64,000 nt of DNA from Trypanosoma brucei (GCA_000002445.1 CM000208.1:2592001-2656000); one strand, 5' to 3'; positions 9,282-59,500 are shown, counted from the stretch's first letter. Program-made: numbers and translations. Notes: generated from the letters alone by a model not told the origin.

Positions 9282-9381
<100 letters not shown>

Positions 9382-11934: not shown

Positions 11935-12029
11935 ACGGAAGGCGCTTTTCTACACTGCCGCTTAAGCTAATTTCTTTGCTGGGTACGACATGTAAGCGTT
12001 AGAGGCTTGCTTGGAGGAGGGTTGGCGGT

Positions 12030-35748: not shown

Positions 35749-36693
35749 TTACTTCGGCACTGGGATACGATGCTGTAGTGCAACTCCATGCCACCCCAGT
35801 TCTTCCTCAACGCATCGGTTGAGCTCCTCGTCCCTCGCAAGACGTCGGGCACTAGCGCGCATTGCAGCGCTGCCCTCGCAATCGCTTCGCTCGGAACGGT
35901 TAAGCCGCTGAAGTTCTTCACGTATGCGATGGACTGTCGCTTCCGTCAACTGCTCTACGCGCTCAGGTGTATCGAACACCTGGTTCCTTCCCGGTGTGGT
36001 ATCGCGGGAATCTGCATGTCCTTCCAGCCGACATGACATTGTGGACGAAGGTGACACGACACTAGCAACTCCTGCCTCACTACTTTCCCTAGACAAGGTA
36101 ACTGAAGTAGGAAGCCGGACCCACGCTCTGCGTGCCGAGCGAAACCACCCGAGCAGGTCGTCGAGCTGTGCCCAACCGATGGACTCTTCCAGCAGAGGGA
36201 GGCGCTGGTGGACTTCATATCTGTAAAGGTTCTGGCCGTCCCGCACGCGCTGGCGTTCGTATTGTGTAAGATTCACCCAAGCCTTACTTCTATCTTCTAA
36301 CCCCAACTGGCACATCTTTTCCCACAGTTTTGCGCTGATGGCGGATTCAGCACATCGATGAAGGGACGGGATTAGATAACTCCAATTGCATGTGTCATGG
36401 CAATGCCGCTGCAGACCTGCGCACGACCCGTTGGGGGGCCTGCTATGCAGAATCAATTTCCTATGATACAGCTGACCGGACTCTGGCATCGTTGCCTGAG
36501 AGGAGTGCCTCACACCATTTAGGACACCAAGAGCCCGTCCCGAATGCCGCCTCGCGTCGGGATTTTCATACAATAAATCACCGCGACCACTCCCGCCGTA
36601 TACTCGGCGTGAAGGAGTTAGGGTCAGGGAAACGGCATCGGGAAAAACTCCGCCGCCTCGGCGTATTAGTCCCGCTGAAGCCCCCATCTTCAT
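35749..36693 (-). CDS. Hypothetical protein, 314 aa.
   Basis: Complete ORF on the cluster strand. Confidence 0.45.
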   Translation of the reverse strand: MKMGASAGLIRRGGGVFPDAVSLTLTPSRRVYGGSGRGDLLYENPDARRHSGRALGVLNGVRHSSQATMPESGQLYHRKLILHSRPPNGSCAGLQRHCHDTCNWSYLIPSLHRCAESAISAKLWEKMCQLGLEDRSKAWVNLTQYERQRVRDGQNLYRYEVHQRLPLLEESIGWAQLDDLLGWFRSARRAWVRLPTSVTLSRESSEAGVASVVSPSSTMSCRLEGHADSRDTTPGRNQVFDTPERVEQLTEATVHRIREELQRLNRSERSDCEGSAAMRASARRLARDEELNRCVEEELGWHGVALQHRIPVPK

Positions 36694-37901: not shown

Positions 37902-39353
37902 CTATTCGCTTGCATCGCATTTTTCCTGTATTTTCCTCAGCAGGGAGAAAGTCACGTTTTCCCCCAACACTAGATGTCTTTCCGCAGTCGTCAGAAAATC
38001 ATACGAGGGGCGTAAACGCCGGAGTTCTGACAGGAGAATGTCACTGAATGGGCCATCTTGGAACGGTCCTGTTTCCGAGTCGGGCGAGCTGCGCAAACAG
38101 CTCTTCAACTTAGCAGCTTGACCGAGACGGAGGAGAAATCCTGAGTAAGTGGCGCAACAACGGCCCCTTATGGTGGGCAACAGTACTTCATAACGCCTAA
38201 GTTCACTCTCTAGGAAACGTGCTGGAAGCCAAAGAAAACGTACGCTGCACAACAAAGACTCTATGGCACCTTCTTTACATGTACAGTTTGAGTCTGGTAC
38301 TGACTCAGGTTTGTCCACCCTTGTTGAAGTGTGCGAAACAGAACCTGTGTGTCTCGATGCCGATGCGAAGCGAACGCAATCCCCCGTGCGATCCGTGAAG
38401 TGTAGCTCACATGCTGCACAAGCAATTTTGTAGGGCATGATTTCATTGGGAAACCCTGTATTCTCCAGCACCTTTCCAAGAACGGAGTACGGAAGATGAG
38501 CCAGTGCATCAACGGAAGTGGTTGTACCTTCAGTACGCAAGACACTGAGTTTCCTTTCCGTATGCTTGGGAGTCTCAATTCCAATAACGCTTTTATTCAA
38601 CCGCTCCACTAACAACGACGCGTAACGGTCTAGGAGGTTGTCGCTAGTCGTCCCAAGAGCCGACGCCAAGAGTTCCTCGCCAAACGAGTTCGGCAGCGTC
38701 TCCCTGCACCTCCAGCAGGCAGGCGGAGGTAAGTTGTAGAAGGTTGTAAGAAGGTCCACAACGTCCAATAACGAGCCGTCAGCCGACTCCAACGACGCAT
38801 TTGGCACACAGCAACCACAGTTGATTTGTGCTCCTTTGGAAGACGCTGCGCCCTCCACGCATTCTCCTCCCTCTTCTTCCCCTGTAAAAGTAGATTGGCA
38901 CGATCCTCCCTGCTGTGGTCCTACACCAGAAGGCACCCTAAAACGTGGCGACAAATCTGACATCGGTTTCACCTCCGATGTTTGGCAGCAACAACAACGA
39001 ACCGAGGGAAACAGGATGAAAGGAAGGGGCTTGGACGCACTTCTGTTACAACATAAAGTCTTTGTTGGTGTAAAAGCACCGTTCTCTTCCCCCAACCTCG
39101 GTCGATCGCCAACATCAACACGGAAAGAATCTAACTTTTTGCGCAGCGACGCCATTTCTCGCTTCAGCTCAATAATATCACTCACATTGACTTCCGCCGC
39201 TCGCCATTCCCGGGGCCGCACCCCCTCATGCCCCGTAGAAAAATCTAAGCTATCGTAAGACGGGGGCGGATCCAGCTGTATCGGAAAGTGGCGTCCATCC
39301 GATGGGGTTTCCAAGGGGAAAACAATATCGTATGGAGGCGGCGGAGAGCCCAT
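37902..39353 (-). CDS. Hypothetical protein, 483 aa, with two N-terminal PPxY motifs.
   Basis: MGSPPPPYDIV...LDPPPSYDSL near the N-terminus. The remainder is Cys-containing with no recognised fold. Confidence 0.45.
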   Translation of the reverse strand: MGSPPPPYDIVFPLETPSDGRHFPIQLDPPPSYDSLDFSTGHEGVRPREWRAAEVNVSDIIELKREMASLRKKLDSFRVDVGDRPRLGEENGAFTPTKTLCCNRSASKPLPFILFPSVRCCCCQTSEVKPMSDLSPRFRVPSGVGPQQGGSCQSTFTGEEEGGECVEGAASSKGAQINCGCCVPNASLESADGSLLDVVDLLTTFYNLPPPACWRCRETLPNSFGEELLASALGTTSDNLLDRYASLLVERLNKSVIGIETPKHTERKLSVLRTEGTTTSVDALAHLPYSVLGKVLENTGFPNEIMPYKIACAACELHFTDRTGDCVRFASASRHTGSVSHTSTRVDKPESVPDSNCTCKEGAIESLLCSVRFLWLPARFLESELRRYEVLLPTIRGRCCATYSGFLLRLGQAAKLKSCLRSSPDSETGPFQDGPFSDILLSELRRLRPSYDFLTTAERHLVLGENVTFSLLRKIQEKCDASE

Positions 39354-39856: not shown

Positions 39857-42094
39857 TTAATCAAATTCTTCAACATCTAAACCTACTAATGCTTCACCAC
39901 CCTCAGGTGCCACTGCCTCAGGTTGTGCTTCTGCAGGAACTTGCTGTGGCTCTTCAAGCTCTTCAACTGCTTCCACTGCTATGTCACCCTCAGGTGCCGC
40001 TGCCTCAGGTTGTGCTTCTGCAGGAACTTGCTGTGGCTCTTCAAGCTCTTCAACTGCTTCCACTGCTATGTCACCCTCAGGTGCCGCTGCCTCAGGTTGT
40101 GCTTCTGCAGGAACTTGCTGTGGTTCTTCAAGCTCTTCAACTGCTTCCACTGCTATGTCACCCTCAGGTGCCGCTGCCTCAGGTTGTGCTTCTGCAGGAA
40201 CTTGCTGTGGCTCTTCAAGCTCTTCAACTGCTTCCACTGCTATGTCACCCTCAGGTGCCGCTGCCTCAGGTTGTGCTTCTGCAGGAACTTGCTGTGGTTC
40301 TTCAAGCTCTTCAAGTGCTTCCACTGCTATGTCACCCTCAGGTGCCGCTGCCTCAGGTTGTGCTTCTGCAGGAACTTGCTGTGGCTCTTCAAGCTCTTCA
40401 AGTGCTTCCACTGCTATGTCACCCTCAGGTGCCGCTGCCTCAGGTTGTGCTTCTGCAGGAACTTGCTGTGGCTCTTCAAGCTCTTCAACTGCTTCCACTG
40501 CTATGTCACCCTCAGGTGCCGCTGCCTCAGGTTGTGCTTCTGCAGGAACTTGCTGTGGCTCTTCAAGCTCTTCAACTGCTTCCACTGCTATGTCACCCTC
40601 AGGTGCCGCTGCCCCAGGTTGTGCTTCTGCAGGAACTTGCTGTGGCTCTTCAAGCTCTTCAACTGCTTCCACTGCTATGTCACCCTCAGGTGCCGCTGCC
40701 TCAGGTTGTGCTTCTGCAGGAACTTGCTGTGGCTCTTCAAGCTCTTCAACTGCTTCCACTGCTATGTCACCCTCAGGTGCCGCTGCCTCAGGTTGTGCTT
40801 CTGCAGGAACTTGCTGTGGCTCTTCAAGCTCTTCAACTGCTTCCACTGCTATGTCACCCTCAGGTGCCGCTGCCTCAGGTTGTGCTTCTGCAGGAACTTG
40901 CTGTGGTTCTTCAAGCTCTTCAAGTGCTTCCACTGCTATGTCACCCTCAGGTGCCGCTGCCCCAGGTTGTGCTTCTGCAGGAACTTGCTGTGGCTCTTCA
41001 AGCTCTTCAACTGCTTCCACTGCTATGTCACCCTCAGGTGCCGCTGCCTCAGGTTGTGCTTCTGCAGGAACTTGCTGTGGCTCTTCAAGCTCTTCAACTG
41101 CTTCCACTGCTATGTCACCCTCAGGTGCCGCTGCCTCAGGTTGTGCTTCTGCAGGAACTTGCTGTGGCTCTTCAAGCTCTTCAACTGCTTCCACTGCTAT
41201 GTCACCCTCAGGTGCCGCTGCCTCAGGTTGTGCTTCTGCAGGAACTTGCTGTGGTTCTTCAAGCTCTTCAAGTGCTTCCACTGCTATGTCACCCTCAGGT
41301 GCCGCTGCCTCAGGTTGTGCTTCTGCAGGAACTTGCTGTGGCTCTTCAAGCTCTTCAAGTCCTTCCACTGCTATGTCACCCTCAGGTTGTGCCTCAGGTT
41401 GTGCTTCTGCAGGAACTTGCTGTGGCTCTTCAAGCTCTTCAACTGCTTCCACTGCTATGTCACCCTCAGGTGCCGCTGCCTCAGGTTGTGCTTCTGCAGG
41501 AACTTGCTGTGGCTCTTCAAGCTCTTCAACTGCTTCCACTGCTATGTCACCCTCAGGTGCCGCTGCCTCAGGTTGTGCTTCTGCAGGAACTTGCTGTGGT
41601 TCTTCAAGCTCTTCAAGTGCTTCCACTGCTATGTCACCCTCAGGTGCCGCTGCCTCAGGTTGTGCCTCAGGTTGTGCTTCTGCAGGAACTTGCTGTGGCT
41701 CTTCAAGCTCTTCAAGTGCTTCCACTGCTATGTCACCCTCAGGTGCCGCTGCCTCAGGTTGTGCTTCTGCAGGAACTTGCTGTGGCTCTTCAAGCTCTTC
41801 AAGTGCTTCCACTGCTATGTCACCCTCAGGTGCCGCTGCCTCAGGTTGTGCCTCAGGTTGTGCTTCTGCAGGAACTTGCTGTGGTTCTTCAAGCTCTTCA
41901 AGTGCTTCCACTGCTATGTCACCCTCAGGTTGTGCCTCAGGTTGTGCTTCTGCAGGAACTTGCTGTGGCTCTTCAAGCTCTTCAAGTGCTTCCACTGCTA
42001 TGTCACCCTCAGGTGCCGCTGCCTCAGGTTGTGCCTCAGGTTGTGCTTCTGCAGGAACTTGCTGTGGCTCTTCAAGCTCTTCAACTGCTTCCAC
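39857..42094 (-). CDS. C-terminal portion of a giant acidic tandem-repeat protein. The frame is separated from the upstream portion by frameshifting lesions, and the ORF caller started it at an in-repeat GTG.
   Basis: 745 codons made up almost entirely of EGDIAVEA(L/V)EELEEPQQVPAEAQPEA(QPEA)AAP units. It terminates ...GGEALVGLDVEEFD* at 39857. Confidence 0.6.
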   Translation of the reverse strand: MEAVEELEEPQQVPAEAQPEAQPEAAAPEGDIAVEALEELEEPQQVPAEAQPEAQPEGDIAVEALEELEEPQQVPAEAQPEAQPEAAAPEGDIAVEALEELEEPQQVPAEAQPEAAAPEGDIAVEALEELEEPQQVPAEAQPEAQPEAAAPEGDIAVEALEELEEPQQVPAEAQPEAAAPEGDIAVEAVEELEEPQQVPAEAQPEAAAPEGDIAVEAVEELEEPQQVPAEAQPEAQPEGDIAVEGLEELEEPQQVPAEAQPEAAAPEGDIAVEALEELEEPQQVPAEAQPEAAAPEGDIAVEAVEELEEPQQVPAEAQPEAAAPEGDIAVEAVEELEEPQQVPAEAQPEAAAPEGDIAVEAVEELEEPQQVPAEAQPGAAAPEGDIAVEALEELEEPQQVPAEAQPEAAAPEGDIAVEAVEELEEPQQVPAEAQPEAAAPEGDIAVEAVEELEEPQQVPAEAQPEAAAPEGDIAVEAVEELEEPQQVPAEAQPGAAAPEGDIAVEAVEELEEPQQVPAEAQPEAAAPEGDIAVEAVEELEEPQQVPAEAQPEAAAPEGDIAVEALEELEEPQQVPAEAQPEAAAPEGDIAVEALEELEEPQQVPAEAQPEAAAPEGDIAVEAVEELEEPQQVPAEAQPEAAAPEGDIAVEAVEELEEPQQVPAEAQPEAAAPEGDIAVEAVEELEEPQQVPAEAQPEAAAPEGDIAVEAVEELEEPQQVPAEAQPEAVAPEGGEALVGLDVEEFD

Positions 42095-43610
42095 TGCTAT
42101 GTCACCCTCAGGTTGTGCCTCAGGTTGTGCAGGTGTGCTTCTGCAGGAACTTGCTGTGGTTCTTCAAGCTCTTCAAGTGCTTCCACTGCTATGTCACCCT
42201 CAGGTTCGCTGCCTCAGGTTGTGCTTCTGCAGGAACTTGCTGTGGTTCTTCAAGCTCTTCAAGTGCTTCCACTGCTATGTCACCCTCAGGTGCCGCTGCC
42301 TCAGGTTGTGCTTCTGCAGGAACTTGCTGTGGCTCTTCAAGCTCTTCAAGTGCTTCCACTGCTATGTCACCCTCAGGTGCCGCTGCCTCAGGTTGTGCCT
42401 CAGGTTGTGCTTCTGCAGGAACTTGCTGTGGCTCTTCAAGCTCTTCAAGTGCTTCCACTGCTATGTCACCCTCAGGTGCCGCTGCCTCAGGTTGTGCCTC
42501 AGGTTGTGCTTCTGCAGGAACTTGCTGTGGTTCTTCAAGCTCTTCAAGTGCTTCCACTGCTATGTCACCCTCAGGTGCCGCTGCCTCAGGTTGTGCCTCA
42601 GGTTGTGCTTCTGCAGGAACTTGCTGTGGCTCTTCAAGCTCTTCAACTGCTTCCACTGCTATGTCACCCTCAGGTTGTGCCTCAGGTTGTGCTTCTGCAG
42701 GAACTTGCTGTGGCTCTTCAAGCTCTTCAAGTGCTTCCACTGCTATGTCACCCTCAGGTGCCGCTGCCTCAGGTTGTGCCTCAGGTTGTGCTTCTGCAGG
42801 AACTTGCTGTGGTTCTTCAAGCTCTTCAAGTGCTTCCACTGCTATGTCACCCTCAGGTGCCGCTGCCTCAGGTTGTGCCTCAGGTTGTGCTTCTGCAGGA
42901 ACTTGCTGTGGCTCTTCAAGCTCTTCAACTGCTTCCACTGCTATGTCACCCTCAGGTTGTGCCTCAGGTTGTGCTTCTGCAGGAACTTGCTGTGGCTCTT
43001 CAAGCTCTTCAAGTGCTTCCACTGCTATGTCACCCTCAGGTGCCGCTGCCTCAGGTTGTGCCTCAGGTTGTGCTTCTGCAGGAACTTGCTGTGGCTCTTC
43101 AAGCTCTTCAAGTGCTTCCACTGCTATGTCACCCTCAGGTGCCGCTGCCTCAGGTTGTGCCTCAGGTTGTGCTTCTGCAGGAACTTGCTGTGGCTCTTCA
43201 AGCTCTTCAACTGCTTCCACTGCTATGTCACCCTCAGGTTGTGCCTCAGGTTGTGCTTCTGCAGGAACTTGCTGTGGCTCTTCAAGCTCTTCAAGTGCTT
43301 CCACTGCTATGTCACCCTCAGGTGCCGCTGCCTCAGGTTGTGCCTCAGGTTGTGCTTCTGCAGGAACTTGCTGTGGCTCTTCAAGCTCTTCAACTGCTTC
43401 CACTGCTATGTCACCCTCAGGTGCCGCTGCCTCAGGTTGTGCCTCAGGTTGTGCTTCTGCAGGAACTTGCTGTGGCTCTTCAAGCTCTTCAAGTGCTTCC
43501 ACTGCTATGTCACCCTCAGGTTGTGCCTCAGGTTGTGCTTCTGCAGGAACTTGCTGTGGCTCTTCAAGCTCTTCAACTGCTTCCACTGCTATGTCACCCT
43601 CAGGTGCCGC
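39890..43610. repeat. Tandem array of about 41 coding repeat units, 84, 87, 93 or 99 nt long. The length variants come from the presence or absence of ttgtgcctcagg and tgccgctgcctcagg modules.
   Basis: Seen directly. The core is ctcaggtgccgctgcctcaggttgtgcttctgcaggaacttgctgtgg(c/t)tcttcaagctcttcaa(c/g)tgcttccactgctatgtcacc. Confidence 0.95.
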
Positions 43611-46600
43611 TGCCTCAGGCTGCGCAATGTCAAGCTCCTTTTGATCTTCAGGCTCAAGTGTCTGAATCACCTCAAGCTGCGCAATGTCAAGCTCCTTTTG
43701 ATCTTCAGGCTCGAGTGTCTGAATCACCTCAGGCTGCGCAATGTCAAGCTCCTTTTGATCTTCAGGCTCAAGTGTCTGAATCACCTCAGGCTGCGCAATG
43801 TCAAGCTCCTTTTGATCTTCAGGCTCGAGTGTCTGAATGACCTCAGGCTGCGCAATGTCAAGCTCCTTTTGATCCTCAGGTTCAAGTGTCTGAATCACCT
43901 CAGGCTGCGCAATGTCAAGCTCCTTTTGATCTTCAGGCTCGGGTGTCTGAATCACCTCAGGCTGCGCAATGTCAAGCTCCTTTTGATCTTCAGGCTCGAG
44001 TGTCTGAATCACCTCAGGCTGCGCAATGTCAAGCTCCTTTTGATCTTCAGGCTCAAGTGTCTGAATCACCTCAGGCTGCGCAATGTCAAGCTCCTTTTGA
44101 TCTTCAGGCTCGGGTGTCTGAATCACCTCAGGCTGCGCAATGTCAAGCTCCTTTTGATCTTCAGGCTCGAGTGTCTGAATCACCTCAGGCTGCGCAATGT
44201 CAAGCTCCTTTTGATCTTCAGGCTCAAGTGTCTGAATCACCTCAGGCTGCGCAATTTCAAGCTCCTTTTGATCTTCAGGCTCAAGTGTCTGAATCACCTC
44301 AGGCTGCGCAATGTCAAGCTCCTTTTGATCTTCAGGCTCGAGTGTCTGAATCACCTCAGGCTGCGCAATGTCAAGCTCCTTTTGATCTTCAGGTTCAAGT
44401 GTCTGAATCACCTCAGGCTGCGCAATGTCAAGCTCCTTTTGATCTTCAGGCTCGAGTGTCTGAATCACCTCAGGCTGCGCAATGTCAAGCTCCTTTTGAT
44501 CTTCCGGCTCAAGTGTCTGAATCACCTCAGGCTGCGCAATGTCAAGCTCCTTTTGATCTTCAGGCTCAAGTGTCTGAATCACCTCAGGCTGCGCAATGTC
44601 AAGCTCCTTTTGATCTTCAGGCTCAAGTGTCTGAATCACCTCAGGCTGCGCAATGTCAAGCTCCTTTTGATCTTCAGGCTCAAGTGTCTGAATCACCTCA
44701 GGCTGCGCAATGTCAAGCTCCTTTTGATCTTCAGGCTCAAGTGTCTGAATCACCTCAGGCTGCGCAATGTCAAGCTCCTTTTGATCTTCAGGCTCAAGTG
44801 TCTGAATCACCTCAAGCTGCGCAATGTCAAGCTCCTTTTGATCTTCAGGCTCAAGTGTCTGAATCACCTCAGGCTGCGCAATGTCAAGCTCCTTTTGATC
44901 TTCAGGCTCGGGTGTCTGAATCACCTCAGGCTGCGCAATGTCAAGCTCCTTTTGATCTTCAGGCTCAAGTGTCTGAATCACCTCAGGCTGCGCAATGTCA
45001 AGCTCCTTTTGATCTTCAGGCTCGAGTGTCTGAATGACCTCAGGCTGCGCAATGTCAAGCTCCTTTTGATCCTCAGGTTCAAGTGTCTGAATCACCTCAG
45101 GCTGCGCAATGTCAAGCTCCTTTTGATCTTCAGGCTCGGGTGTCTGAATCACCTCAGGCTGCGCAATGTCAAGCTCCTTTTGATCTTCAGGCTCAAGTGT
45201 CTGAATCACCTCAGGCTGCGCAATGTCAAGCTCCTTTTGATCTTCAGGCTCAAGTGTCTGAATCACCTCAGGCTGCGCAATTTCAAGCTCCTTTTGATCT
45301 TCAGGCTCAAGTGTCTGAATCACCTCAGGCTGCGCAATGTCAAGCTCCTTTTGATCTTCAGGCTCAAGTGTCTGAATCACCTCAGGCTGCGCAATGTCAA
45401 GCTCCTTTTGATCTTCAGGCTCAAGTGTCTGAATCACCTCAGGCTGCGCAATGTCAAGCTCCTTTTGATCTTCAGGCTCGAGTGTCTGAATCACCTCAGG
45501 CTGCGCAATGTCAAGCTCCTTTTGATCTTCAGGCTCAAGTGTCTGAATCACCTCAGGCTGCGCAATGTCAAGCTCCTTTTGATCTTCAGGCTCAAGTGTC
45601 TGAATCACCTCAGGCTGCGCAATGTCAAGCTCCTTTTGATCTTCAGGCTCGAGTGTCTGAATCACCTCAGGCTGCGCAATGTCAAGCTCCTTTTGATCTT
45701 CAGGTTCAAGTGTCTGAATCACCTCAGGCTGCGCAATGTCAAGCTCCTTTTGATCTTCAGGTTCAAGCTTTTTGAATGCAATTTTCTCTGTATGTTCACG
45801 CTCCTTTTTTTTGTTTTCTTGTGTGATTTCTTCTTGATGATCGTTTGTTTTTAATTTTTCTTTTTGTGGTTTATTTTCTTTTGGGAGTTGAACTTCTTGG
45901 GGATCTTGGTTTGTGGTCGAGTCCTGTTTTTTTAGTTGTGGTTGGTGCCACTGCTGCTGCTCGGCTGTTTCATGAGCGTGAGCAAAACTTTTTTTCGGGT
46001 CAAGTATTTTGGTGTTTTGAGGCAGTGATTGCCTTTTTTGATTTGCTTCTTTACATGTTTGTTTTTTACTAATTGTTTCAGTTAGTGGCGTTTGGGCACT
46101 GCTGATGCGTGCCTCCTTAGCTTTGAGGTATATCGTCCTTCTCTCCATTTCTTGAAGGATGTCACCTCTGTTGATTTGTTCATTTTTTTCCATTCGTTGG
46201 CGTAATTTGCCTTCATCTTCAACCACGCCAACTACCTTCTTTAGTTCATGAAACGCCTCTTGCAGTAGAAGGTATGACCTTCGCAGGTCTACCATGATTT
46301 CCATGTAACTGAAGTAATGCTTTGTGTCAAGTGCTATTCTTTCTTGTATATTTTTCTGATACTGCCTCTCAACAAGCCGTTGGCGCTGTTTGGCGTGCAT
46401 ATCCCTCAGAACTTGTCTGTGAGTTTCACTGCGCTGTTTGTCTTTAATATCCAACGTTTCGCGCGTTTTGGCACTTATGTGTTCATATTTTTCCTTTGAT
46501 ATTCGGTCAATAGTCTCCTGCACTTTTGGCAAGAGAGTATCGAGCATGCGGTCAATGCGGCGTAGGGTGCGGTTGCGTTCGTTTTCTTCCTTTTTCCGAA

Positions 46601-47138
46601 TCCTCGCAGAAACCTCCTTGTCTAACTCATGCTGTGTTTTGTCATGGTCGTATTTTGTTAGCACCTGCTGTAGGCGTGAAGACCGCCATAGTCTAATATT
46701 ACTGTCAATTTGCGCGATTTCCTCCTCAATTGAAGGACTGTCATTAACAATGTGTCGTTGACTAAAAAAAACAGAGTTTAACACAGGTTGCCCGGCATCA
46801 GGAAGGGACTTGCTCACCTCTGTATAAAACGTCATATCGTGCATTGCATCACTAACCAACAACCCCTTAGCCACATCATCTGCTGCTGCAGCGCCGGCGT
46901 ACACGGACGGTCCTTTCGGACGCCGGAAAGAGGAGAGGGGGAGATAATCCGGCTTTGAGGGTTTGGCAGGGATCTTCAATTGCTTGCTATCGACCTCTGT
47001 GCTGACTTGCTCCAGTAGTGGTTCTGCAACCGTCGACGTTGTTGTAGGTTGCTCCTTGGCCTGCTCCTGAGGCGATCTCCCCTCGCCTGGGGAATTATTA
47101 TACATTGCTACTGCTGTTGCTATTTTCCCCCTTTCCAC
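42189..47138 (-). CDS. N-terminal portion of the giant acidic tandem-repeat protein. It has a unique K/E/R-rich coiled-coil-like head of about 470 aa, then about 38 copies of a 19-aa repeat, then the ~29-33-aa repeat.
   Basis: 1649-aa ORF. The repeats are EPEDQKELDIAQPEVIQTL (57-nt units), switching to EGDIAVEA(L/V)EELEEPQQVPAEAQPEA... The premature end ...EAANLRVT* arises from a 1-nt deletion in a repeat unit. Confidence 0.65.
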   Translation of the reverse strand: MERGKIATAVAMYNNSPGEGRSPQEQAKEQPTTTSTVAEPLLEQVSTEVDSKQLKIPAKPSKPDYLPLSSFRRPKGPSVYAGAAAADDVAKGLLVSDAMHDMTFYTEVSKSLPDAGQPVLNSVFFSQRHIVNDSPSIEEEIAQIDSNIRLWRSSRLQQVLTKYDHDKTQHELDKEVSARIRKKEENERNRTLRRIDRMLDTLLPKVQETIDRISKEKYEHISAKTRETLDIKDKQRSETHRQVLRDMHAKQRQRLVERQYQKNIQERIALDTKHYFSYMEIMVDLRRSYLLLQEAFHELKKVVGVVEDEGKLRQRMEKNEQINRGDILQEMERRTIYLKAKEARISSAQTPLTETISKKQTCKEANQKRQSLPQNTKILDPKKSFAHAHETAEQQQWHQPQLKKQDSTTNQDPQEVQLPKENKPQKEKLKTNDHQEEITQENKKKEREHTEKIAFKKLEPEDQKELDIAQPEVIQTLEPEDQKELDIAQPEVIQTLEPEDQKELDIAQPEVIQTLEPEDQKELDIAQPEVIQTLEPEDQKELDIAQPEVIQTLEPEDQKELDIAQPEVIQTLEPEDQKELDIAQPEVIQTLEPEDQKELDIAQPEVIQTLEPEDQKELEIAQPEVIQTLEPEDQKELDIAQPEVIQTLEPEDQKELDIAQPEVIQTPEPEDQKELDIAQPEVIQTLEPEDQKELDIAQPEVIQTLEPEDQKELDIAQPEVIQTLEPEDQKELDIAQPEVIQTPEPEDQKELDIAQPEVIQTLEPEDQKELDIAQLEVIQTLEPEDQKELDIAQPEVIQTLEPEDQKELDIAQPEVIQTLEPEDQKELDIAQPEVIQTLEPEDQKELDIAQPEVIQTLEPEDQKELDIAQPEVIQTLEPEDQKELDIAQPEVIQTLEPEDQKELDIAQPEVIQTLEPEDQKELDIAQPEVIQTLEPEDQKELDIAQPEVIQTLEPEDQKELEIAQPEVIQTLEPEDQKELDIAQPEVIQTLEPEDQKELDIAQPEVIQTPEPEDQKELDIAQPEVIQTLEPEDQKELDIAQPEVIQTLEPEDQKELDIAQPEVIQTPEPEDQKELDIAQPEVIQTLEPEDQKELDIAQPEVIQTLEPEDQKELDIAQPEVIQTLEPEDQKELDIAQPEVIQTLEPEDQKELDIAQLEVIQTLEPEDQKELDIAQPEAAAPEGDIAVEAVEELEEPQQVPAEAQPEAQPEGDIAVEALEELEEPQQVPAEAQPEAQPEAAAPEGDIAVEAVEELEEPQQVPAEAQPEAQPEAAAPEGDIAVEALEELEEPQQVPAEAQPEAQPEGDIAVEAVEELEEPQQVPAEAQPEAQPEAAAPEGDIAVEALEELEEPQQVPAEAQPEAQPEAAAPEGDIAVEALEELEEPQQVPAEAQPEAQPEGDIAVEAVEELEEPQQVPAEAQPEAQPEAAAPEGDIAVEALEELEEPQQVPAEAQPEAQPEAAAPEGDIAVEALEELEEPQQVPAEAQPEAQPEGDIAVEAVEELEEPQQVPAEAQPEAQPEAAAPEGDIAVEALEELEEPQQVPAEAQPEAQPEAAAPEGDIAVEALEELEEPQQVPAEAQPEAQPEAAAPEGDIAVEALEELEEPQQVPAEAQPEAAAPEGDIAVEALEELEEPQQVPAEAQPEAANLRVT
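43610..45770. repeat. Tandem array of about 38 coding repeat units of 57 nt. Point variants include ctcaag/ctcgag/ctcggg and caatgt/caattt.
   Basis: Seen directly. Unit: ctcaggctgcgcaatgtcaagctccttttgatcttcaggctcaagtgtctgaatcac. Confidence 0.95.
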
Positions 47139-47451
47139 CCCCTTCTCGACTCCTTCTTTCCTATTTTCTACGCCTTGTACTGCGGGGGCTGATGTATATG
47201 TCTACTTACACTTGTTACTGAGGAGGTAGTAGGTGAGAGAGCGACCAATTTAGCAGCAGCACAAGCCGGGGTGCGTGGTTGTGGGCGCGTGGGTCACAAA
47301 GTGTAGGGAAATTATACACGTGTGCACACGAACGTGTACACATATATGCGGCCACCGTGTGAATGGAACTCGGTGTGTGTGTCTTCGCACGCAGGTGGGC
47401 AGCTTTTATTGTTAACGAATCTCCACCTCGTACTGGATATCAACACTGTCA

Positions 47452-49665
47452 CTAGTTTTCTTCACTGTCTGTGTTGGCTGCTGGATCGTCCCCGCCTGCG
47501 TTCGCCCCCTCCAGATTGGGATGAAACTCAGGAGTGAGGGAGACAACGGGCTCATGCGGATGAATACCATGCTTGAGGATAAAAACCTCCGGGTGCTGCT
47601 GCAAATACCCCAAAATACCTCCAGAACCTCGCCGTAAAATTGCACGCCGTAGCTCGCTGCTGATAAATTTTGGCAGGTGCGAAGGAAGCAGGTTTCGGGA
47701 TCTACAAACCGCCAACCGCGCTGCTACAAGAGACACCATGAATCGGAGTTGCTCTTCTGGGTCCGTCAAGAGTCGCTTGTGGTGCTCAGACGCTTGGCCA
47801 GAAACGGGGATATGGCTGGTGATGTTTATGTTCTGCTCGCACTCGCTTGATTCGTCCCCTTCTGGCGCGACTGGGGCCATGCGTTGGACACACAATTCCG
47901 GGGGGCATTCCACCAGACGGAACAAATGTGGGTATTTCCTGATCCACGTGCGAGAGCGTGCGTCGGTTATGCGGCGTATGTTTTCCGGGAGGAGCTGTGG
48001 TAGGTGACCTGTTACAATAAGGGTACCGTCTATGGGGAGAAGATCGAACACGTAGTACGCAAGGACGTCAGGATGGCAAAAAGGGGAAGGCCCCAGTTCG
48101 TGCAGAGCTATGCAACGCAGCAACAGACGTTTCCTGTCTATGAGGCGAACTCGTTTGTGATTTGGAAGCTTTTGCAAGCTCTTCGGTACCCATTCGTTCG
48201 TCTCCTCCAGTTCCTTTTTCAGCTCTTCGCATGTTTTCTCTTGGTAGAGGGCAGGTAAGCAGCGGGCCTTATCGAGCCAGAAACGCACTCCGACGATCCG
48301 GGATGAATCAATAGGGTCGTACTCAAAGTCGAGAATAGATTGTGCTGTTTCGGCATTCCCAACTTTTCCTGCTTTGCTTTCTTCCCCACCAATAGCGAGA
48401 ACAACTGCCAGTGGCTGTGTCAACCACTTCCCAGCTATCTCATCCAGCTCGGGCAGCTTTGTAAACGCTTCCGTGTGTAGAACGCGGCACAGGCGGTAGA
48501 GGTTATAATCCTCCACCAATTTATTTTCTGGGTTTGGGATGGCACGGAGCACGATGCGGCTGTAGGCAGCGGCGGAGGTAAAACATAGAAACAATGTAGT
48601 TTTCACCCGTGTATCCGGCGAAGAGTCTGAGGGTTGCGAGGCGTCACAACATTCGGGGCGTATCGCTTCAAGGGCGACCTTTGCCGTTTCGCCATTCAAC
48701 TCTGCCCAGCGAAAGGCATGAAGTCGCTGCCCCTCACTGCAATCCACCGTTGCCCGCTCAACACCAGCCACCATCTCACCACTCCAGGAAGTTGTGTTTT
48801 CAGTTAGTTTATGTGCTGTGTATTCCGCTACAAGCATCCACAACTGTATTCCAGAATTTGGCTTGAGCCACTCCTGCAAGACTCGTTCCATGCTCTCGAT
48901 AGATCTGCTCTCATTGCTGTTGGCCCGCCCTCCCCCTTCAGCACAATGTCCGCTAAATGTTGCAGCTCCGGTTCTACTCTGTATTATGTCTTCTAAGGGA
49001 AGAAAGAGACGAAACGATGTCCCTCCGCTTACCTCACCACCTACTTCTTGGATTAATTCAACGTATAAAATTCCGTTACCACCGCAGGAGAGCCGATACC
49101 GCGACGGAAACCCTTGCAAGTGACTCTTGAGACCATTTGGAAGGCTCTCAATCACCTCATCTGGGAGGAGCTTGGCTAGCTCCGTCAGAGGAACTACGCG
49201 GTTGTGTGCCACAAAGGGGAATACGGGATCAGTCCGCTCCTCCGCATCACCACAAGGGGTTTTGGGCACTCTTGAACGGACCGCCCTGTCCGCTGGCACC
49301 CCGTGGGGGAGAGTGTGCACAGCGAGGCACGCTAAGCGAAGAGACGTGGTCCGCAGCACGTCTTTGCGATCGCCATGCCTGTCAAACACGCTAAATGCGA
49401 CTTTCCGGCGTAAAGCCACAGAGAAAGAGCCCCCGTATCGGCTTGGAAGCAACCCACAACCCCTTGGAACAGGCACCCCCACAAAACATTTCCCAGTAAC
49501 CCTCATGCAGCCTTTACCTCCTGCTAAGTTACCTAATTTTTTTTTTTTTTGCTCCTTCGGTAGGTACCGCACTGCACTGTCCTTACCTCTTTCCAATTCC
49601 ACCTTATGCACCCCAGAGGGGGTGGGGGTTCTGTTATTGAAGGCGAGGGTAAGAAGAAGATACAC
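47452..49665 (-). CDS. Hypothetical protein, 737 aa.
   Basis: Long complete ORF on the cluster strand. No motif recognised. Confidence 0.5.
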   Translation of the reverse strand: MYLLLTLAFNNRTPTPSGVHKVELERGKDSAVRYLPKEQKKKKLGNLAGGKGCMRVTGKCFVGVPVPRGCGLLPSRYGGSFSVALRRKVAFSVFDRHGDRKDVLRTTSLRLACLAVHTLPHGVPADRAVRSRVPKTPCGDAEERTDPVFPFVAHNRVVPLTELAKLLPDEVIESLPNGLKSHLQGFPSRYRLSCGGNGILYVELIQEVGGEVSGGTSFRLFLPLEDIIQSRTGAATFSGHCAEGGGRANSNESRSIESMERVLQEWLKPNSGIQLWMLVAEYTAHKLTENTTSWSGEMVAGVERATVDCSEGQRLHAFRWAELNGETAKVALEAIRPECCDASQPSDSSPDTRVKTTLFLCFTSAAAYSRIVLRAIPNPENKLVEDYNLYRLCRVLHTEAFTKLPELDEIAGKWLTQPLAVVLAIGGEESKAGKVGNAETAQSILDFEYDPIDSSRIVGVRFWLDKARCLPALYQEKTCEELKKELEETNEWVPKSLQKLPNHKRVRLIDRKRLLLRCIALHELGPSPFCHPDVLAYYVFDLLPIDGTLIVTGHLPQLLPENIRRITDARSRTWIRKYPHLFRLVECPPELCVQRMAPVAPEGDESSECEQNINITSHIPVSGQASEHHKRLLTDPEEQLRFMVSLVAARLAVCRSRNLLPSHLPKFISSELRRAILRRGSGGILGYLQQHPEVFILKHGIHPHEPVVSLTPEFHPNLEGANAGGDDPAANTDSEEN

Positions 49666-50030: not shown

Positions 50031-51737
50031 CTAAATCACCTCTGCTGCATGTTTCTTGTACCTTTCGACGATCCACTTTGTGCGCTGCTTCAGATCAACA
50101 ATGGGGCTGGGATAGGCCGATCCACCAACGATGCTGCCCCCAAGCGGTAGCTCCGTCTTTTCCTTTTTTATTCCGTTGCTTTCCTTCACAGTTCCTTGCA
50201 CTGTACCTAATGTGCCCTGGTCCGCTGGTCGCCCCTCCTTGCAAAACACATCCCACTTGTGTATCGTCCTCACAGACACATTCCGGAGCTCTGGCACCCA
50301 TTGTTTGATAAACACGGCCTGCGGATCGTGCTGAGCGGACTGGCGGAACGGGTTAAAGAAACGAAAATACGGCTGTGCATCAGCACCCTGGCCCGATGAC
50401 CAGAGCCAACCGCCGCTGTTATTAGCCACATCGTAGTCCACAGCGACGGTAGCGTACCACCGCTCACCTTCCCTCCAATCCACAAAGAGAACCTTCACAA
50501 GAAAATTGGCAATTAACATCCGGCAGCGGTTGTGACACCAACCCGTTTTCGTCAAACAGCGTACCGCAGCGTCCACAAGCGGGAATCCTGTGGCTCCGGA
50601 CTTGAACGCGGTAAATTCTGCGTCATTCCACTCCCACTGGAAATTAGAGTACTTCTCCAGAAACGGCTCATTGGCAAGCGTCGCACGACATTGTCGCTCA
50701 CCCTGAGGGGCAACGTCCATCTTTAGTTGCCCCAATGCCAGACGCGGGTTGTGATAGAGTAACATCGAATAGAACTCGCGCCAAATGAGTTGCCTAGTAA
50801 ATGCATGCTCCTTCCCCAAGTGTAGCAATGCAACCTGCATGGCCTCACGGATAGAGATGGTACCAAATTTTAAATGCGGACTTAAATGTGTCGTTTTGTC
50901 CCCCGGAATGTCGTCTCGGATGGCAGAATAATTTTTTGCCGATGCAACGCTTGCCAACCGTAGCAACCCTTCACTTCTTCCGCCCCTATCCACCAGTTCG
51001 GGAAAGGTTTGGGGAAGGGCTGCTAAATCAACGTAGTCAACCAGTGAAGAGAACTCATCCGCGGCCATGGCGCTCCTCCTTGCTTGATCTACAGTAGCTT
51101 TGACATCTTCCTTTACATGGGAACCGGTAAAAATATCACCGATGGTGGTGGCCTTAGGATTTGGCGCTTGTATGTCGCTGAAGTGCTCCTGTAGAACGGC
51201 ACGATAAAAAGGACTGAAGACACGGTACGGTTTTCCATTCTTGTTAGTTACTACATCCGGGGGGAGTAGTGTATAATCCATGTTGCTGGTGACACACCGT
51301 ACACCCCGTTTCACACACCATTCTTCGAGCTGAAGATCACGTTTACGTGCAAAAGGCGTAATATCGCGGTTAAAACCAAGCTGTTTGATGTCGTAACCAG
51401 AGGAACGAACCACCTCGAGACAGTCACAATCACTACCACGAAGACAAACTAGACGTCCACCAAGCTGAACAGTATCCAAATGTTTCAGTGATTGGCATAG
51501 GAACTCAAAGCAAGCCTTACCGAAATAAGGGTTCTTATCGGGGTCACACTGCCTTGGATTGAAAAAGAACAGGGGAATGACGGGTAGCGACTGTTTGCCA
51601 GCCCGTTCTATCAGCAGCAGCAGACCGGTGTTGTCAGTCACACGGAAATCTCGCCTAAAAATGAACACCGCTGCTGGGAGCGGTTGACTCGGGGTTCGCT
51701 GCCTCTTGACGGCGACAACACGACTCGGTACGTACAT
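50031..51737 (-). CDS. Deoxyribodipyrimidine (CPD) photolyase / cryptochrome-family flavoprotein, 568 aa.
   Basis: N-terminal photolyase alpha/beta domain (FRRDFRVTDNTGL...). C-terminal FAD-binding domain motifs: WREFY, TGFPLVDAAVRCL..TGWCHNRCRMLIANFLVK, DWREGERWY, DYDVANNSGGWLW, YFRFFNP. Confidence 0.88.
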   Translation of the reverse strand: MYVPSRVVAVKRQRTPSQPLPAAVFIFRRDFRVTDNTGLLLLIERAGKQSLPVIPLFFFNPRQCDPDKNPYFGKACFEFLCQSLKHLDTVQLGGRLVCLRGSDCDCLEVVRSSGYDIKQLGFNRDITPFARKRDLQLEEWCVKRGVRCVTSNMDYTLLPPDVVTNKNGKPYRVFSPFYRAVLQEHFSDIQAPNPKATTIGDIFTGSHVKEDVKATVDQARRSAMAADEFSSLVDYVDLAALPQTFPELVDRGGRSEGLLRLASVASAKNYSAIRDDIPGDKTTHLSPHLKFGTISIREAMQVALLHLGKEHAFTRQLIWREFYSMLLYHNPRLALGQLKMDVAPQGERQCRATLANEPFLEKYSNFQWEWNDAEFTAFKSGATGFPLVDAAVRCLTKTGWCHNRCRMLIANFLVKVLFVDWREGERWYATVAVDYDVANNSGGWLWSSGQGADAQPYFRFFNPFRQSAQHDPQAVFIKQWVPELRNVSVRTIHKWDVFCKEGRPADQGTLGTVQGTVKESNGIKKEKTELPLGGSIVGGSAYPSPIVDLKQRTKWIVERYKKHAAEVI

Positions 51738-59300: not shown

Positions 59301-59500
59301 ACAAGAAGCCCCACGGACGGCGGGGGCATGTGGAAGAAGATAAAAGAGGGGGAGAAAGTAGAGACTTTGCATGAGATCCGAATACATTTTACCCTTCGCA
59401 GGCAGCGAAGAGCAATAATAGTGACAACAATAACAACAACAACCGTTGATATTATATATATATATATATAAAGTGCTCTGTTTAAAATCCTTTCCACCAC
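56330..59500 (-). CDS. SET-domain protein (putative lysine methyltransferase) with a Cys-rich, zinc-finger-like segment; 1056 aa.
   Basis: Core SET motifs NHSCKPN and GEEITVSY, followed by a post-SET-like Cys cluster CCCCSFCKSSTALLEGVICPECR. Confidence 0.7.
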   Translation of the reverse strand: MVERILNRALYIYIYIISTVVVVIVVTIIALRCLRRVKCIRISCKVSTFSPSFIFFHMPPPSVGLLVMFDVRVVANPPGMSWVEDKSRDLESLRKRLKECGHDAESLTIVGRKLHEIAEQAHRKGEWGTLGVESGSGRDEEQAFQLFTHAGELLMRTVISILESFTQHEIHAATRVRIEKEEVDIIETLMRAANTDKTCSALSTLHCRWRRVYAASRAWRWCEAHVTLTSDYKPDLCSGGLYDMLPMTEWWWMPETVSAMTPPKAEATSSMCSDNDDGWLLFEDLFLSTTAPQSSECKRQLHDAETVTAFLNELNSTVDLFSRRIPAGYDELRRLYIGKADIQLQQARLFSHLSFVKGVPGSYQNATDGKTVVSGGVNGCHKLLWISREGLSTSMRCLIDALTAAQIAVAQFNAPCDDLIRRIRLAMFGVGLSSDGEGDTPHSACTPLLHPSVEPSSNRWRIKHGVGLIATNHIMEGAVVVKDRSLLLVGQVSPQKRKQERVTDIVEAPDGENAAVVNGALELFLRGGFVHKDELATSSIVKALRVGKLLGDPVEAPDMHSALHLLAMMPFSGESGMHPTQGAGRENVDYEAAIARDLADLMCCWRRCSVPLEAPQDFRATPKAEVLTPCRALLPLVSLINHSCKPNAIILPLCSEESQGSSSFGEGKGDVCVIALRDIEPGEEITVSYLSSVLIPKTLKDEQNGFCCCCSFCKSSTALLEGVICPECRQLIYDPEDAQKNCDKYQGSAGRQPTRGVHTYPCVLVDLSLPKGQRSYEHASDCSRADSDTYESLSRRILQGYANAVDKACEEFESTSTFGGVGASACEVEVEAGTVGSSEEVQGIEVDGMEEGSDDDDNGAGEDRLAQTALRRLMDLDSFACALPTTHYIRLQTRLECLALSLRSQLTTHDSHMLLLLCEELLEDLRQILPPNHPLLTGVRLQYALARSRHFAESADSSHTTEKHDHGCCGGVRECAATLSLPFLRDGMIRECIVHSFQEFYTTVGWKHEGCTQRELLSSFLEEYAVELLMCGIESIDHMTLLSLVYDASQEASVGL

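What the first reader, a model, noticed from the sequence alone, without database searches (positions are those of the whole stretch)
39857..47138. A ~7.3-kb gene for a giant, highly acidic protein built from two different in-frame tandem-repeat families
Reading the minus strand, there is first a unique basic/acidic coiled-coil-like head of about 470 aa. Then come about 38 near-perfect copies of the 19-aa unit EPEDQKELDIAQPEVIQTL, encoded by 57-nt units. The sequence then switches abruptly at about 43.61 kb to about 41 copies of a second family, EGDIAVEA(L/V)EELEEPQQVPAEAQPEA(QPEA)AAP. That family is encoded by 84, 87, 93 or 99-nt units, and modules of 12 or 15 nt (ttgtgcctcagg; tgccgctgcctcagg) are inserted or deleted in a patterned way. 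The patterning suggests ongoing unequal recombination. The protein is Glu/Pro/Gln-rich, has no hydrophobic segments, and ends ...LDVEEFD. The two repeat families share no sequence beyond a ctcagg start, which points to independent amplification. Repeat proteins of this kind in trypanosomes are typically cytoskeletal or flagellar and immunodominant. I cannot assign this one to a named family from sequence alone.
Basis: seen in the sequence. Interest (0 to 1): 0.68.

Follow-up and report, generated by a model that had tools for sequence, protein, structure and literature searches.

The report
Giant acidic trypanosome flagellar repeat antigen
This is the Trypanosoma brucei gene for a giant, very acidic repeat protein of the flagellar skeleton, most likely the I17 antigen cloned in 1995; it is real and striking but not new, and in this sequence its reading frame is broken once.

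Summary
The repeats are real. On the minus strand a 447-aa unique head (ATG at 47105) is followed by 37 full 57-nt units plus one hybrid unit (EPEDQKELDIAQPEVIQTL). At a shared CCTGAGG (43619-43613) the sequence switches to 41 units of a second family. Each of these is a 72-nt core plus an optional 12-nt EAQP module and/or a 15-nt EAAAP module, giving 84, 87 or 99 nt. There is no 93-nt unit.

The region is not one intact 7.3-kb ORF. Two adjacent aberrant units (86 and 92 nt, 42287-42110) shift the frame. As written, the ORF ends at 42189 (1638 aa, 184 kDa). The remaining 2.3 kb, including ...LDVEEFD, is in another frame. Repairing the two units gives 2413 aa and 264 kDa.

The head is 98% identical to a T. 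b. equiperdum 'paraflagellar rod protein' and 45-55% identical to 'putative flagellar antigen' proteins across Trypanosoma. Each of those carries its own acidic repeats. An independent T. equiperdum assembly shows the same head, 57-nt array, ~87-nt array and tail, in the same synteny.

Chromosome, size class and taxon range fit antigen I17 (Tb10.26.0960), which lies between the paraflagellar rod and the axoneme. I could not prove that identity.

A divergent, repeat-less, syntenic homologue exists in Novymonas.

Verdict: a known kind of gene, and of low novelty.

The parts
47218..47240 (-). Pyrimidine-rich tract ending in AG, about 110 nt upstream of the ATG. It is a candidate trans-splice acceptor region (inferred only).
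   Evidence: Sequence tctctcacctactacctcctcag read directly. Its function is inferred from general knowledge of trypanosome trans-splicing and was not tested.
45765..47105 (-). Unique head coding region, 447 aa, starting at the ATG at 47105 (MYNNSPGEG...). Net basic, pI 9.2.
   Evidence: The same start is annotated in T. b. equiperdum RHW69643.1, which is 98% identical.
46095..46961 (-). Conserved core of the head, aa ~49-337. It holds the motif block KPDYxPLS...HDMTFYT...LPDAGxPVLNSxxFSQRHxVxDxPSxEEEIA, then three long helices (126-205, 212-292, 298-337).
   Evidence: Alignment A1 has 61 invariant columns across 12 Trypanosoma sequences. In the AlphaFold2 model nearly all 10-residue blocks of these helices have mean pLDDT of about 90 or more. 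No Pfam family, no PDB sequence match and no Foldseek match.
45765..46094 (-). Lineage-specific K/Q/E-rich linker between the conserved core and the repeats (aa 338-447).
   Evidence: It is not alignable between species. pLDDT is below 50 for residues 339-424.
43656..45764 (-). Repeat family 1: 37 full 57-nt units encoding EPEDQKELDIAQPEVIQTL. There are nine DNA variants, and 19 units are identical.
   Evidence: The variant order is ABCCDCCCECFCGCFCHCCCCCICBCEDFCDFCGCDH. The rare variants E, F, G and H recur in two blocks, which suggests multi-unit duplication.
43602..43655 (-). Hybrid junction unit (EPEDQKELDIAQPE|AAAP). Family 1 switches to family 2 in frame at the shared heptamer CCTGAGG (43619-43613).
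   Evidence: Outside this heptamer the families are not significantly similar: 22 of 500 DNA shuffles and 322 of 500 protein shuffles reach the observed score.
42375..43601 (-). Repeat family 2, upstream sub-array. It is an (84, 99, 99)-nt higher-order repeat, four times, plus one further 99-nt unit. It encodes EGDIAVEA(L/V)EELEEPQQVPAEAQP plus EAQP, with or without EAAAP.
42110..42287 (-). Two adjacent aberrant family-2 units of 86 nt and 92 nt that break the reading frame (net +1). The frame-0 stop follows at 42191-42189.
   Evidence: Neither aberrant string occurs in the T. equiperdum locus. The 86-nt unit ends GAGGCAGCG|AACCT, which is the prefix of the EAAAP module joined to the suffix of the EAQP module. 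That looks like a blended consensus (inference).
39905..42109 (-). Repeat family 2, downstream part (25 units), in frame +1 relative to the head. The first units are mixed in size. From 41641 they are almost all 87 nt, with a four-unit higher-order pattern (variant types 8, 9, 9, 11).
   Evidence: TRF on the T. equiperdum locus also finds periods of 174 and 345 nt.
39857..39904 (-). Unique C-terminal tail EGGEALVGLDVEEFD plus the TAA stop.
   Evidence: The identical tail ...GGEALVGLDVEEFD follows the repeats in the T. equiperdum locus.

Best explanation
The region is the T. brucei-group member of a conserved Trypanosoma gene annotated 'flagellar antigen' or 'paraflagellar rod protein'. It is most probably the high-molecular-weight repeat antigen I17 (Tb10.26.0960).

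Proposed mode of action (inferred unless marked otherwise):
- A basic, conserved N-terminal head anchors the protein in the flagellar skeleton. The head consists of a motif block plus a ~210-residue helical hairpin. For I17 the published location is the zone of linking filaments between the paraflagellar rod and the axoneme.
- A very long polyanionic tail of about 1,970 residues projects from the head. It carries roughly one acidic residue in three and has no K or R in family 2. It would act as a spacer or bristle, and as a dense array of identical B-cell epitopes.

Evolution of the tail:
- It changes by unequal exchange or slippage. The evidence is the near-identical units, the 12- and 15-nt modules, the multi-unit higher-order repeats, and the different units found in every Trypanosoma lineage.

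The frame break at 42.2 kb is most likely a consensus or assembly artefact in a diploid repeat. On that reading the real product would be about 2,400 aa (~264 kDa).

What is shown: the sequence anatomy, the homology, the synteny and the architecture across species.
What is inferred: identity with I17, the localisation, the anchor/spacer roles, and the artefactual nature of the frameshift.
For: - The head hits only Trypanosoma proteins. It is 98% identical to T. b. equiperdum 'paraflagellar rod protein' and 45-55% identical to T. congolense TCIL3000_10_9300 and to 'putative flagellar antigen' of T. vivax, T. theileri, T. cruzi, T. rangeli and T. conorhini.
- Every orthologue has the same plan of a conserved head followed by lineage-specific acidic tandem repeats. 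Examples are T. congolense EPEAHEAAEEGV, T. cruzi VQELVAPAED and the T. conorhini 19-aa unit.
- The T. equiperdum chromosome locus L001 is 99.1% identical over 11.96 kb of flank. It shows the same gene order and the same head, 57-nt array, ~87-nt array and GLDVEEFD tail.
- The review PMC2813431 lists TbI17 = Tb10.26.0960 (chromosome 10), with a T. cruzi orthologue and none found in Leishmania. It describes I17 as a repeat protein isolated with serum purified on proteins above 180 kDa. Immunogold labelling placed it between the paraflagellar rod and the axoneme.
- Calculated masses are 184 kDa as written and 264 kDa after repair.
- The AlphaFold2 head model has confident long helices.
- In the junction model the family-2 part has pLDDT below 50.
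- The aberrant units are absent from L001 and sit at the transition between two sub-array types.
Against: - No direct link was obtained to the I17 cDNA, to Tb10.26.0960 or to T. cruzi XP_811780. The clusters examined do not contain that accession, and the 1995 paper is not held.
- PFC20 (Tb10.389.0100) is another chromosome-10 paraflagellar rod protein with no Leishmania orthologue listed, so it is a formal alternative.
- No protein containing either repeat was found in 5.8 billion proteins. No T. b. brucei or T. b. gambiense protein appeared for the head. The gene may therefore be annotated as a pseudogene or left unannotated in reference genomes, which would fit a real frameshift as well as an artefact.
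- The T. equiperdum assembly has a 100-N gap exactly between the two arrays.
- The localisation and the spacer role are untested here.
Confidence: 0.7

Rival explanations
1. The frameshift is genuine. In this strain or allele the gene is truncated. It would make a 1638-aa (184 kDa) protein with the head, all of family 1 and about 15 family-2 units. The downstream 2.3 kb would be untranslated repeat DNA, kept stop-free only because its units are homogenised.
For: - The sequence as given has the break.
- 184 kDa still fits the '>180 kDa' class reported for I17.
- No intact T. b. brucei or T. b. gambiense protein for this gene exists in the protein collection. That would be expected if reference annotations treat it as a pseudogene.
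Against: - The two lesions are adjacent, complex (-1 with a substitution, and +8), and lie at a boundary between sub-array types.
- One lesion is an exact prefix/suffix blend of the two module types, which is typical of a confused consensus.
- All 25 downstream units and the unique tail stay in one frame, and the same tail is in frame with the repeats in T. equiperdum.
- The lesions are absent from T. equiperdum.
Confidence: 0.25
2. The locus is a mis-assembly that fuses two separate repeat genes, one carrying the 57-nt array and one carrying the ~90-nt array.
For: - 5.9 kb of near-identical repeats is hard to assemble.
- The only independent assembly examined has a 100-N gap exactly between the arrays.
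- The frame break shows that the array is not flawless.
Against: - In T. equiperdum both arrays lie in the same order and on the same strand, inside the same interval between the conserved head and the same downstream gene. No second start or head lies between them.
- In the window the junction is seamless, in frame and at a 7-nt microhomology.
- Family 2 has no head of its own.
- Orthologues in other species have the head and the repeats in one ORF.
Confidence: 0.04
3. It is a flagellar repeat antigen of this orthologue group but not I17. It could be an unnamed protein or another chromosome-10 paraflagellar rod component such as PFC20.
For: - The I17 identity rests on indirect criteria only: chromosome, repeat nature, size and taxon range.
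- PFC20 (Tb10.389.0100) is also on chromosome 10 and has no Leishmania orthologue listed.
Against: - The orthologues are named 'flagellar antigen', which echoes the I2/I17 paper's title, rather than 'paraflagellar rod component', the label PFC stands for in the review.
- The protein is a giant repeat protein, as described for I17.
Confidence: 0.15
4. The arrays are non-coding satellite DNA, and the long ORFs are accidents of stop-free repeat units.
For: Stop-free frames of up to 1957 aa also exist on the plus strand across the arrays. An open frame alone therefore proves nothing.
Against: - The minus-strand frame is continuous with a conserved, homologous head.
- All neighbouring genes are on the minus strand.
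- Orthologues in six or more species carry acidic repeats in the same position.
- In family 1, five of the eight variable sites are synonymous.
Confidence: 0.01

Closest known systems
T. brucei antigen I17 (TbI17, Tb10.26.0960; Imboden et al. 1995, as summarised in PMC2813431)
   Same: - Chromosome 10. The T. congolense orthologue is TCIL3000_10_9300.
- High-molecular-weight tandem-repeat protein.
- Orthologue in T. cruzi, and no named Leishmania orthologue.
- Flagellar or paraflagellar rod annotation of the homologues.
   Different: Nothing contradictory was found, but identity is unproven because I could compare neither the I17 clone sequence nor the gene model. A divergent syntenic homologue does exist in a Leishmaniinae species, Novymonas. 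The review lists no Leishmania orthologue.
'Putative flagellar antigen' orthologues of T. cruzi, T. rangeli, T. conorhini, T. theileri and T. vivax, and T. congolense TCIL3000_10_9300
   Same: Homologous head of ~290 aa at 45-55% identity with 61 invariant columns, followed by an acidic, Pro/Ala/Glu-rich tandem-repeat tail.
   Different: - Their repeat units are unrelated in sequence and length: 10, 12 or 19 aa, against 19 plus 28-33 aa here.
- Their proteins as annotated are far smaller (310-767 aa).
- The T. brucei-group gene has two families and about 79 units.
Other giant repeat proteins of the T. brucei cytoskeleton: MARP (38-aa units), I2, Tb5.20, FAZ10
   Same: They are large cytoskeletal or flagellar proteins dominated by near-identical in-frame tandem repeats. 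MARP, I2 and I17 are antigens recognised in infected cattle.
   Different: Different loci, different unit lengths, and no sequence match found. Tb5.20 is Tb11.01.6740 and I2 is Tb927.3.5310. From my own knowledge, MARP repeats are basic microtubule-binding units, whereas these are strongly acidic.
Projection or side-arm domains of filament-associated proteins, such as neurofilament side-arms and MAP2/tau projection domains (working analogy only, from general knowledge)
   Same: A structured anchor joined to a long, charged, low-complexity extension that could set the spacing between cytoskeletal elements.
   Different: No homology. The spacer function of this protein is untested.

Membership tests
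Trypanosoma 'flagellar antigen' orthologue group (probable I17) | Homologous conserved N-terminal head | tested here: met
   E-values run from 8e-206 to 1e-78 against 11 Trypanosoma proteins. Alignment A1 has 61 invariant columns.
Trypanosoma 'flagellar antigen' orthologue group (probable I17) | Conserved genomic position, downstream of the photolyase gene on the same strand | tested here: met
   - T. equiperdum L001 is collinear with the window at 99.1% identity.
- The photolyase and the homologue of window 35749-36693 also flank the distant homologues in L002 and in Novymonas L003.
Trypanosoma 'flagellar antigen' orthologue group (probable I17) | Acidic tandem-repeat C-terminal region | tested here: met
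Antigen I17 specifically | Sequence identity with the I17 cDNA or with gene model Tb10.26.0960 | not testable with these tools
   No TriTrypDB or GenBank nucleotide access. The paper is not held. The ID occurs only in the review.
Antigen I17 specifically | High-molecular-weight (>180 kDa class) repeat protein | tested here: met
   184 kDa as written and 264 kDa after repair. The criterion comes from the review.
Antigen I17 specifically | Present in Trypanosoma, with no orthologue in Leishmania | tested here: inconclusive
   - All hits to the head in the word-indexed protein search are Trypanosoma.
- The profile search also finds divergent homologues. One is Novymonas esmeraldas KAK7198849.1, which is syntenic, with hhalign probability 95.5%.
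- No protein named as Leishmania was seen.
Antigen I17 specifically | Immunogold localisation between the paraflagellar rod and the axoneme | not testable with these tools
   Experimental feature, reported in the review.
Major paraflagellar rod proteins PFR1/PFR2 (Pfam flagellar rod family) | Match to the Pfam family model | tested here: not met
   The head has no Pfam family at E <= 0.01.
MARP-type microtubule-associated repetitive proteins | 38-aa repeat units | tested here: not met
   The units here are 19 aa and 28, 29 or 33 aa. No direct alignment to MARP was run.
Beta-solenoid repeat proteins (for family 1 only) | Repeat units stacking as beta-strand coils, with a significant fold match | tested here: inconclusive
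   - The single-sequence AlphaFold2 model gives paired beta-strands per 19-aa unit, with pLDDT 70-86.
- Foldseek against the PDB finds no match with E < 1, although the weak hits are mostly beta-helix or solenoid proteins.
- From my own knowledge, AlphaFold2 tends to over-predict solenoids for perfect repeats.

The most novel reading that the evidence does not exclude
The head defines an unrecognised flagellar protein family with no Pfam model and no solved structure. It spans the trypanosomatids, including a repeat-less syntenic orthologue in Leishmaniinae, so it would not be Trypanosoma-specific as the literature states. In addition, the 38 highly acidic 19-aa units might not be disordered. 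They might fold into a beta-solenoid rod, possibly dependent on counter-ions or calcium, that physically forms the filaments linking the paraflagellar rod to the axoneme.
Probability: 0.1. Interest if true: 0.6.

Novelty: already known. Interest (0 to 1): 0.27.

Why it matters
Practical points:
- The gene is a textbook case of how trypanosome cytoskeletal antigens evolve. A conserved anchor is joined to a fast-turnover repeat tail.
- Its copy numbers and frame cannot be trusted from assemblies.
- Anyone using this locus for diagnostics, tagging or proteomics should know that the window's gene model is broken at 42.2 kb. In at least one public annotation (T. equiperdum) the protein is also truncated, to 340 aa.

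Biological points:
- The molecular identity of the links between the paraflagellar rod and the axoneme is still thinly documented, so a well-defined gene model for the probable I17 protein would help.
- The finding that the head has divergent syntenic relatives outside Trypanosoma slightly revises the published taxon range.

None of this is surprising to a specialist.

Tried and rejected
- A protein search with 267 aa spanning the junction of the two repeat families found nothing at E <= 0.001. The repeats appear in no annotated protein of that collection.
- An exact look-up of the 1638-aa ORF found no record.
- A protein search with the distant homologue P0018 returned only P0018 itself.
- Literature searches for Tb10.26.0960, TbI17, the repeat peptides, I17 with GM6, and 'flagellar antigen' with Tb927.10 or TriTrypDB gave only the Portman and Gull review or irrelevant papers.
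- The 1995 I17 paper and Goto et al. 2011 are not held.
- The cluster look-up did not contain T. cruzi XP_811780, so it could not link the hits to the review's table.
- PDB sequence searches and Foldseek searches with both models gave nothing significant.
- Common ancestry of the two repeat families was tested by local alignment against shuffles and rejected.
- Plus-strand ORFs of 1251-1957 aa across the arrays were rejected as genes. They are stop-free frames of a repeat on the strand opposite to every other gene.
- Programmed ribosomal frameshifting was considered for the break and set aside. The lesion is two separate irregular indels, not a slippery site.

Full report
**1. What is in the sequence**

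Every ORF of at least 200 aa outside the arrays lies on the minus strand, apart from three 210-246 aa plus-strand ORFs that overlap minus-strand ORFs. The flank of the locus is 99.1% identical over 11.96 kb to chromosome record CM010681.1 of Trypanosoma brucei equiperdum. The window is therefore a T. brucei-group polycistron.

Reading the minus strand from the ATG at 47105 gives these parts:
- A unique 447-aa head (47105-45765).
- 37 full 57-nt units encoding EPEDQKELDIAQPEVIQTL (45764-43656).
- One hybrid unit (43655-43602).
- 41 units of a second family, starting at 43601.
- A 15-aa unique tail, EGGEALVGLDVEEFD, and a TAA stop ending at 39857.

Tandem Repeats Finder scores the two arrays at 4093 (37.8 copies, 97% matches) and 5639 (41.3 copies, 92% matches). 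Chance is not an issue.

**2. Fine structure of the repeats**

Family 1 has nine DNA variants, and 19 units are identical. Eight positions vary, and five of those changes are synonymous. The rare variants E, F, G and H recur in two blocks, which points to duplication of multi-unit segments.

Family 2 is a 72-nt core (EGDIAVEA[L/V]EELEEPQQVPAEAQP) followed by a 12-nt EAQP module, a 15-nt EAAAP module, or both. That gives units of 84, 87 and 99 nt. No 93-nt unit exists.
- The upstream part is an (84, 99, 99) higher-order repeat, four times.
- The downstream part is almost pure 87-nt units with a four-unit pattern.
- Periods of 174 and 345 nt are also detected in the T. equiperdum locus.

The two families are not significantly similar: 22 of 500 DNA shuffles and 322 of 500 protein shuffles reach the observed local score. 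They join in frame at a shared CCTGAGG heptamer at 43619-43613.

**3. The reading frame is broken**

The ORF listing and direct translation show that the ORF from the head ends at a stop at 42191-42189. The rest of family 2 and the tail are in frame +1.

The cause is two adjacent aberrant units:
- An 86-nt unit at 42287-42202, in which GCAGCGGCACCT has become GCAGCGAACCT.
- A 92-nt unit at 42201-42110, which carries eight extra bases (GCACACCTGCACAACCTGAGG).

As written, the product is 1638 aa and 184 kDa. Replacing the two units by canonical ones gives 2413 aa and 264 kDa, with D+E at 28% and K+R at 5%. The calculated pI sits at the low limit of the calculation, and there is no hydrophobic segment.

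I think the break is more likely a consensus artefact than a real mutation, for these reasons:
- The lesions are complex and adjacent.
- They sit where the array changes from one sub-type to the other.
- The first lesion is exactly the prefix of the EAAAP module joined to the suffix of the EAQP module. A blended consensus of two unit types, for example from two alleles, would produce that.
- All 25 downstream units and the tail remain in a single frame.
- Neither aberrant string is present in T. equiperdum.

This is inference. A genuine truncation remains a live rival.

**4. Independent support for the architecture**

The T. equiperdum locus L001 has the same flanking genes (a 684-aa ORF and photolyase upstream, the same ORFs downstream). 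It has the same head, a 57-nt array (10.8 copies assembled), a 100-N gap, an ~87-nt array (46.9 copies, with many single-base frameshifts) and the same GLDVEEFD end. A 1-nt indel in that assembly truncates its annotated protein at 340 aa.

Both arrays therefore belong to one interval between the head and the next gene in a second assembly. This argues strongly against a chimera of two genes, but the junction itself falls in that assembly's gap.

**5. What the protein is**

The head has no Pfam family, no PDB relative by sequence and no significant fold match.

It does have clear orthologues, all in Trypanosoma:
- T. b. equiperdum 'paraflagellar rod protein' (98% identity).
- T. congolense TCIL3000_10_9300.
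- 'Putative flagellar antigen' proteins of T. vivax, T. theileri, T. melophagium, T. cruzi, T. c. marinkellei, T. rangeli and T. conorhini.

The alignment shows a strongly conserved core at aa ~49-337, with 61 invariant columns. After the core, each lineage has its own acidic repeat:
- T. congolense, a 12-aa unit EPEAHEAAEEGV.
- T. cruzi, a 10-aa unit VQELVAPAED, or a 30-aa composite in another strain.
- T. conorhini, a 19-aa unit.
- T. theileri and T. melophagium, a few short units.

The plan of a conserved head plus a lineage-specific acidic repeat tail is thus the defining architecture, and the T. brucei-group gene is its extreme.

The AlphaFold2 model of the head, built on the 12-sequence alignment, gives three long helices (126-205, 212-292, 298-337). 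Nearly all 10-residue blocks in these helices have mean pLDDT of about 90 or more. The conserved N-terminal motif block is low-confidence, which fits a segment that folds only on a partner.

**6. Link to the literature**

The review by Portman and Gull (PMC2813431) describes I2 and I17 as high-molecular-weight repeat proteins. They were cloned with bovine infection serum that had been affinity-purified on proteins above 180 kDa. [quoted passage not shown]

The review's table gives TbI17 = Tb10.26.0960 with a T. cruzi orthologue and 'Not found' in Leishmania. Chromosome 10, giant repeat nature, size class, taxon range and the 'flagellar antigen' naming of the orthologues all fit.

I could not obtain the I17 sequence or the gene model, so the identity is probable (about 0.75) and not proven. 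PFC20, which is also on chromosome 10 and also lacks a Leishmania orthologue in the same table, is a formal alternative.

**7. Wider family**

A profile search of 1.84 billion representatives found 25 proteins. Of these, 21 lie beyond the Trypanosoma orthologues, with E-values from 1.6e-23 to 1.9e-4. They share the HDxxFY...LP...PVLxSxxxxHR block and the helical region, and several have acidic non-repeat tails.

Two of them are positional orthologues:
- P0018, on a 59.5%-GC contig.
- Novymonas esmeraldas KAK7198849.1, which is 269 aa and repeat-less.

Both lie downstream of the photolyase gene, directly in Novymonas and one gene further on in L002. Both lie upstream of the homologue of window ORF 35749-36693. 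The hhalign probability is 95.5% for the Novymonas protein.

The head is therefore older than the genus Trypanosoma, and the repeat tail is the Trypanosoma elaboration. This modestly corrects the statement that I17 is absent from the Leishmania lineage, although I saw no protein named as Leishmania itself.

**8. How it most likely works**

The following is shown: a basic conserved helical head, an enormous polyanionic repeat tail, and concerted evolution of the units.

The following is inferred:
- The head anchors the protein in the flagellar skeleton at the interface between the rod and the axoneme.
- The tail projects as an extended charged spacer, and is the immunodominant epitope array.
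- Array length changes by unequal exchange or slippage.

A single-sequence AlphaFold2 model of the junction predicts family 2 as disordered (pLDDT below 50). It predicts family 1 as paired beta-strands per unit (pLDDT 70-86). The non-significant Foldseek hits are mostly beta-helix proteins. AlphaFold2 is known to over-predict solenoids for perfect repeats, and each unit carries a net charge of about -5. I therefore treat a solenoid rod as a low-probability idea only.

**9. Verdict**

The flagellar repeat antigen interpretation is right, and it can be sharpened to a named orthologue group and probably to I17.

This is a known kind of gene in a well-studied parasite. Novelty is low and interest is modest. 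The useful by-products are the exact repeat anatomy, the warning about the frame break, and the wider distribution of the head.

Noticed in passing
window 11415-12103: A cluster of five tRNA genes: Asn-GTT (+), Ala-TGC (-), Arg-TCT (+), Lys-TTT (+) and Arg-CCT (+). It lies just beyond the last large minus-strand ORF, a protein kinase at 14333-16045. The first 14.3 kb of the window has no ORF of 200 aa or more. This is probably the end of the polycistronic unit.
   Followed up: partly
window 1961-2154: A 33-nt tandem repeat of 5.9 copies at 97% matches. It is open in several frames on both strands. One minus frame reads EGGYRGGRGGG and the listed ORF frame reads VDTVVDVVEAR. There is no Pfam match, and its coding status is unresolved.
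   Followed up: partly
window 9283-9379: A perfect (CA)48 microsatellite.
   Followed up: no
window 18999-21113: A single 704-aa HSP90/HSP83 gene. From memory, T. brucei HSP83 is a tandem multi-copy array in the reference genome. A single copy here could mean the array lies outside the window or is collapsed in this assembly. If collapsed, that would also bear on how far the repeat copy numbers at 39.8-45.8 kb can be trusted.
   Followed up: no
L003 8001-8810 (Novymonas esmeraldas JAECZO010000181.1); L002 8001-9272 (Logan SRR29272288): Divergent, repeat-less homologues of the head sit in the same genomic position as the window gene. They lie after the photolyase gene and before the homologue of window ORF 35749-36693. 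One is in a Leishmaniinae species and the other in an unidentified 59.5%-GC organism. The review PMC2813431 lists I17 as not found in Leishmania.
   Followed up: yes
L001 10001-16133 (T. b. equiperdum CM010681.1): The public T. equiperdum gene model is truncated to 340 aa by a 1-nt indel in the head. The repeat region is unannotated, contains a 100-N gap and has many frameshifts. This gene is poorly represented in public annotation.
   Followed up: yes
window 39889-45854, plus strand: Three overlapping plus-strand ORFs of 1251, 1305 and 1957 aa run across the arrays. They are stop-free frames of the repeat units on the strand opposite to all neighbouring genes, and should not be taken for genes.
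   Followed up: yes
window 28358-31213, 50031-51737, 56330-59500, 16389-18443, 22017-23768: Neighbouring minus-strand genes with clear domains: a MutS-family mismatch-repair protein, a DNA photolyase, a SET-domain protein, an ABC-ATPase and a CDC20/Fizzy-like WD40 protein. The immediate neighbours at 47452-49665 and 37902-39353 have no Pfam family.
   Followed up: partly
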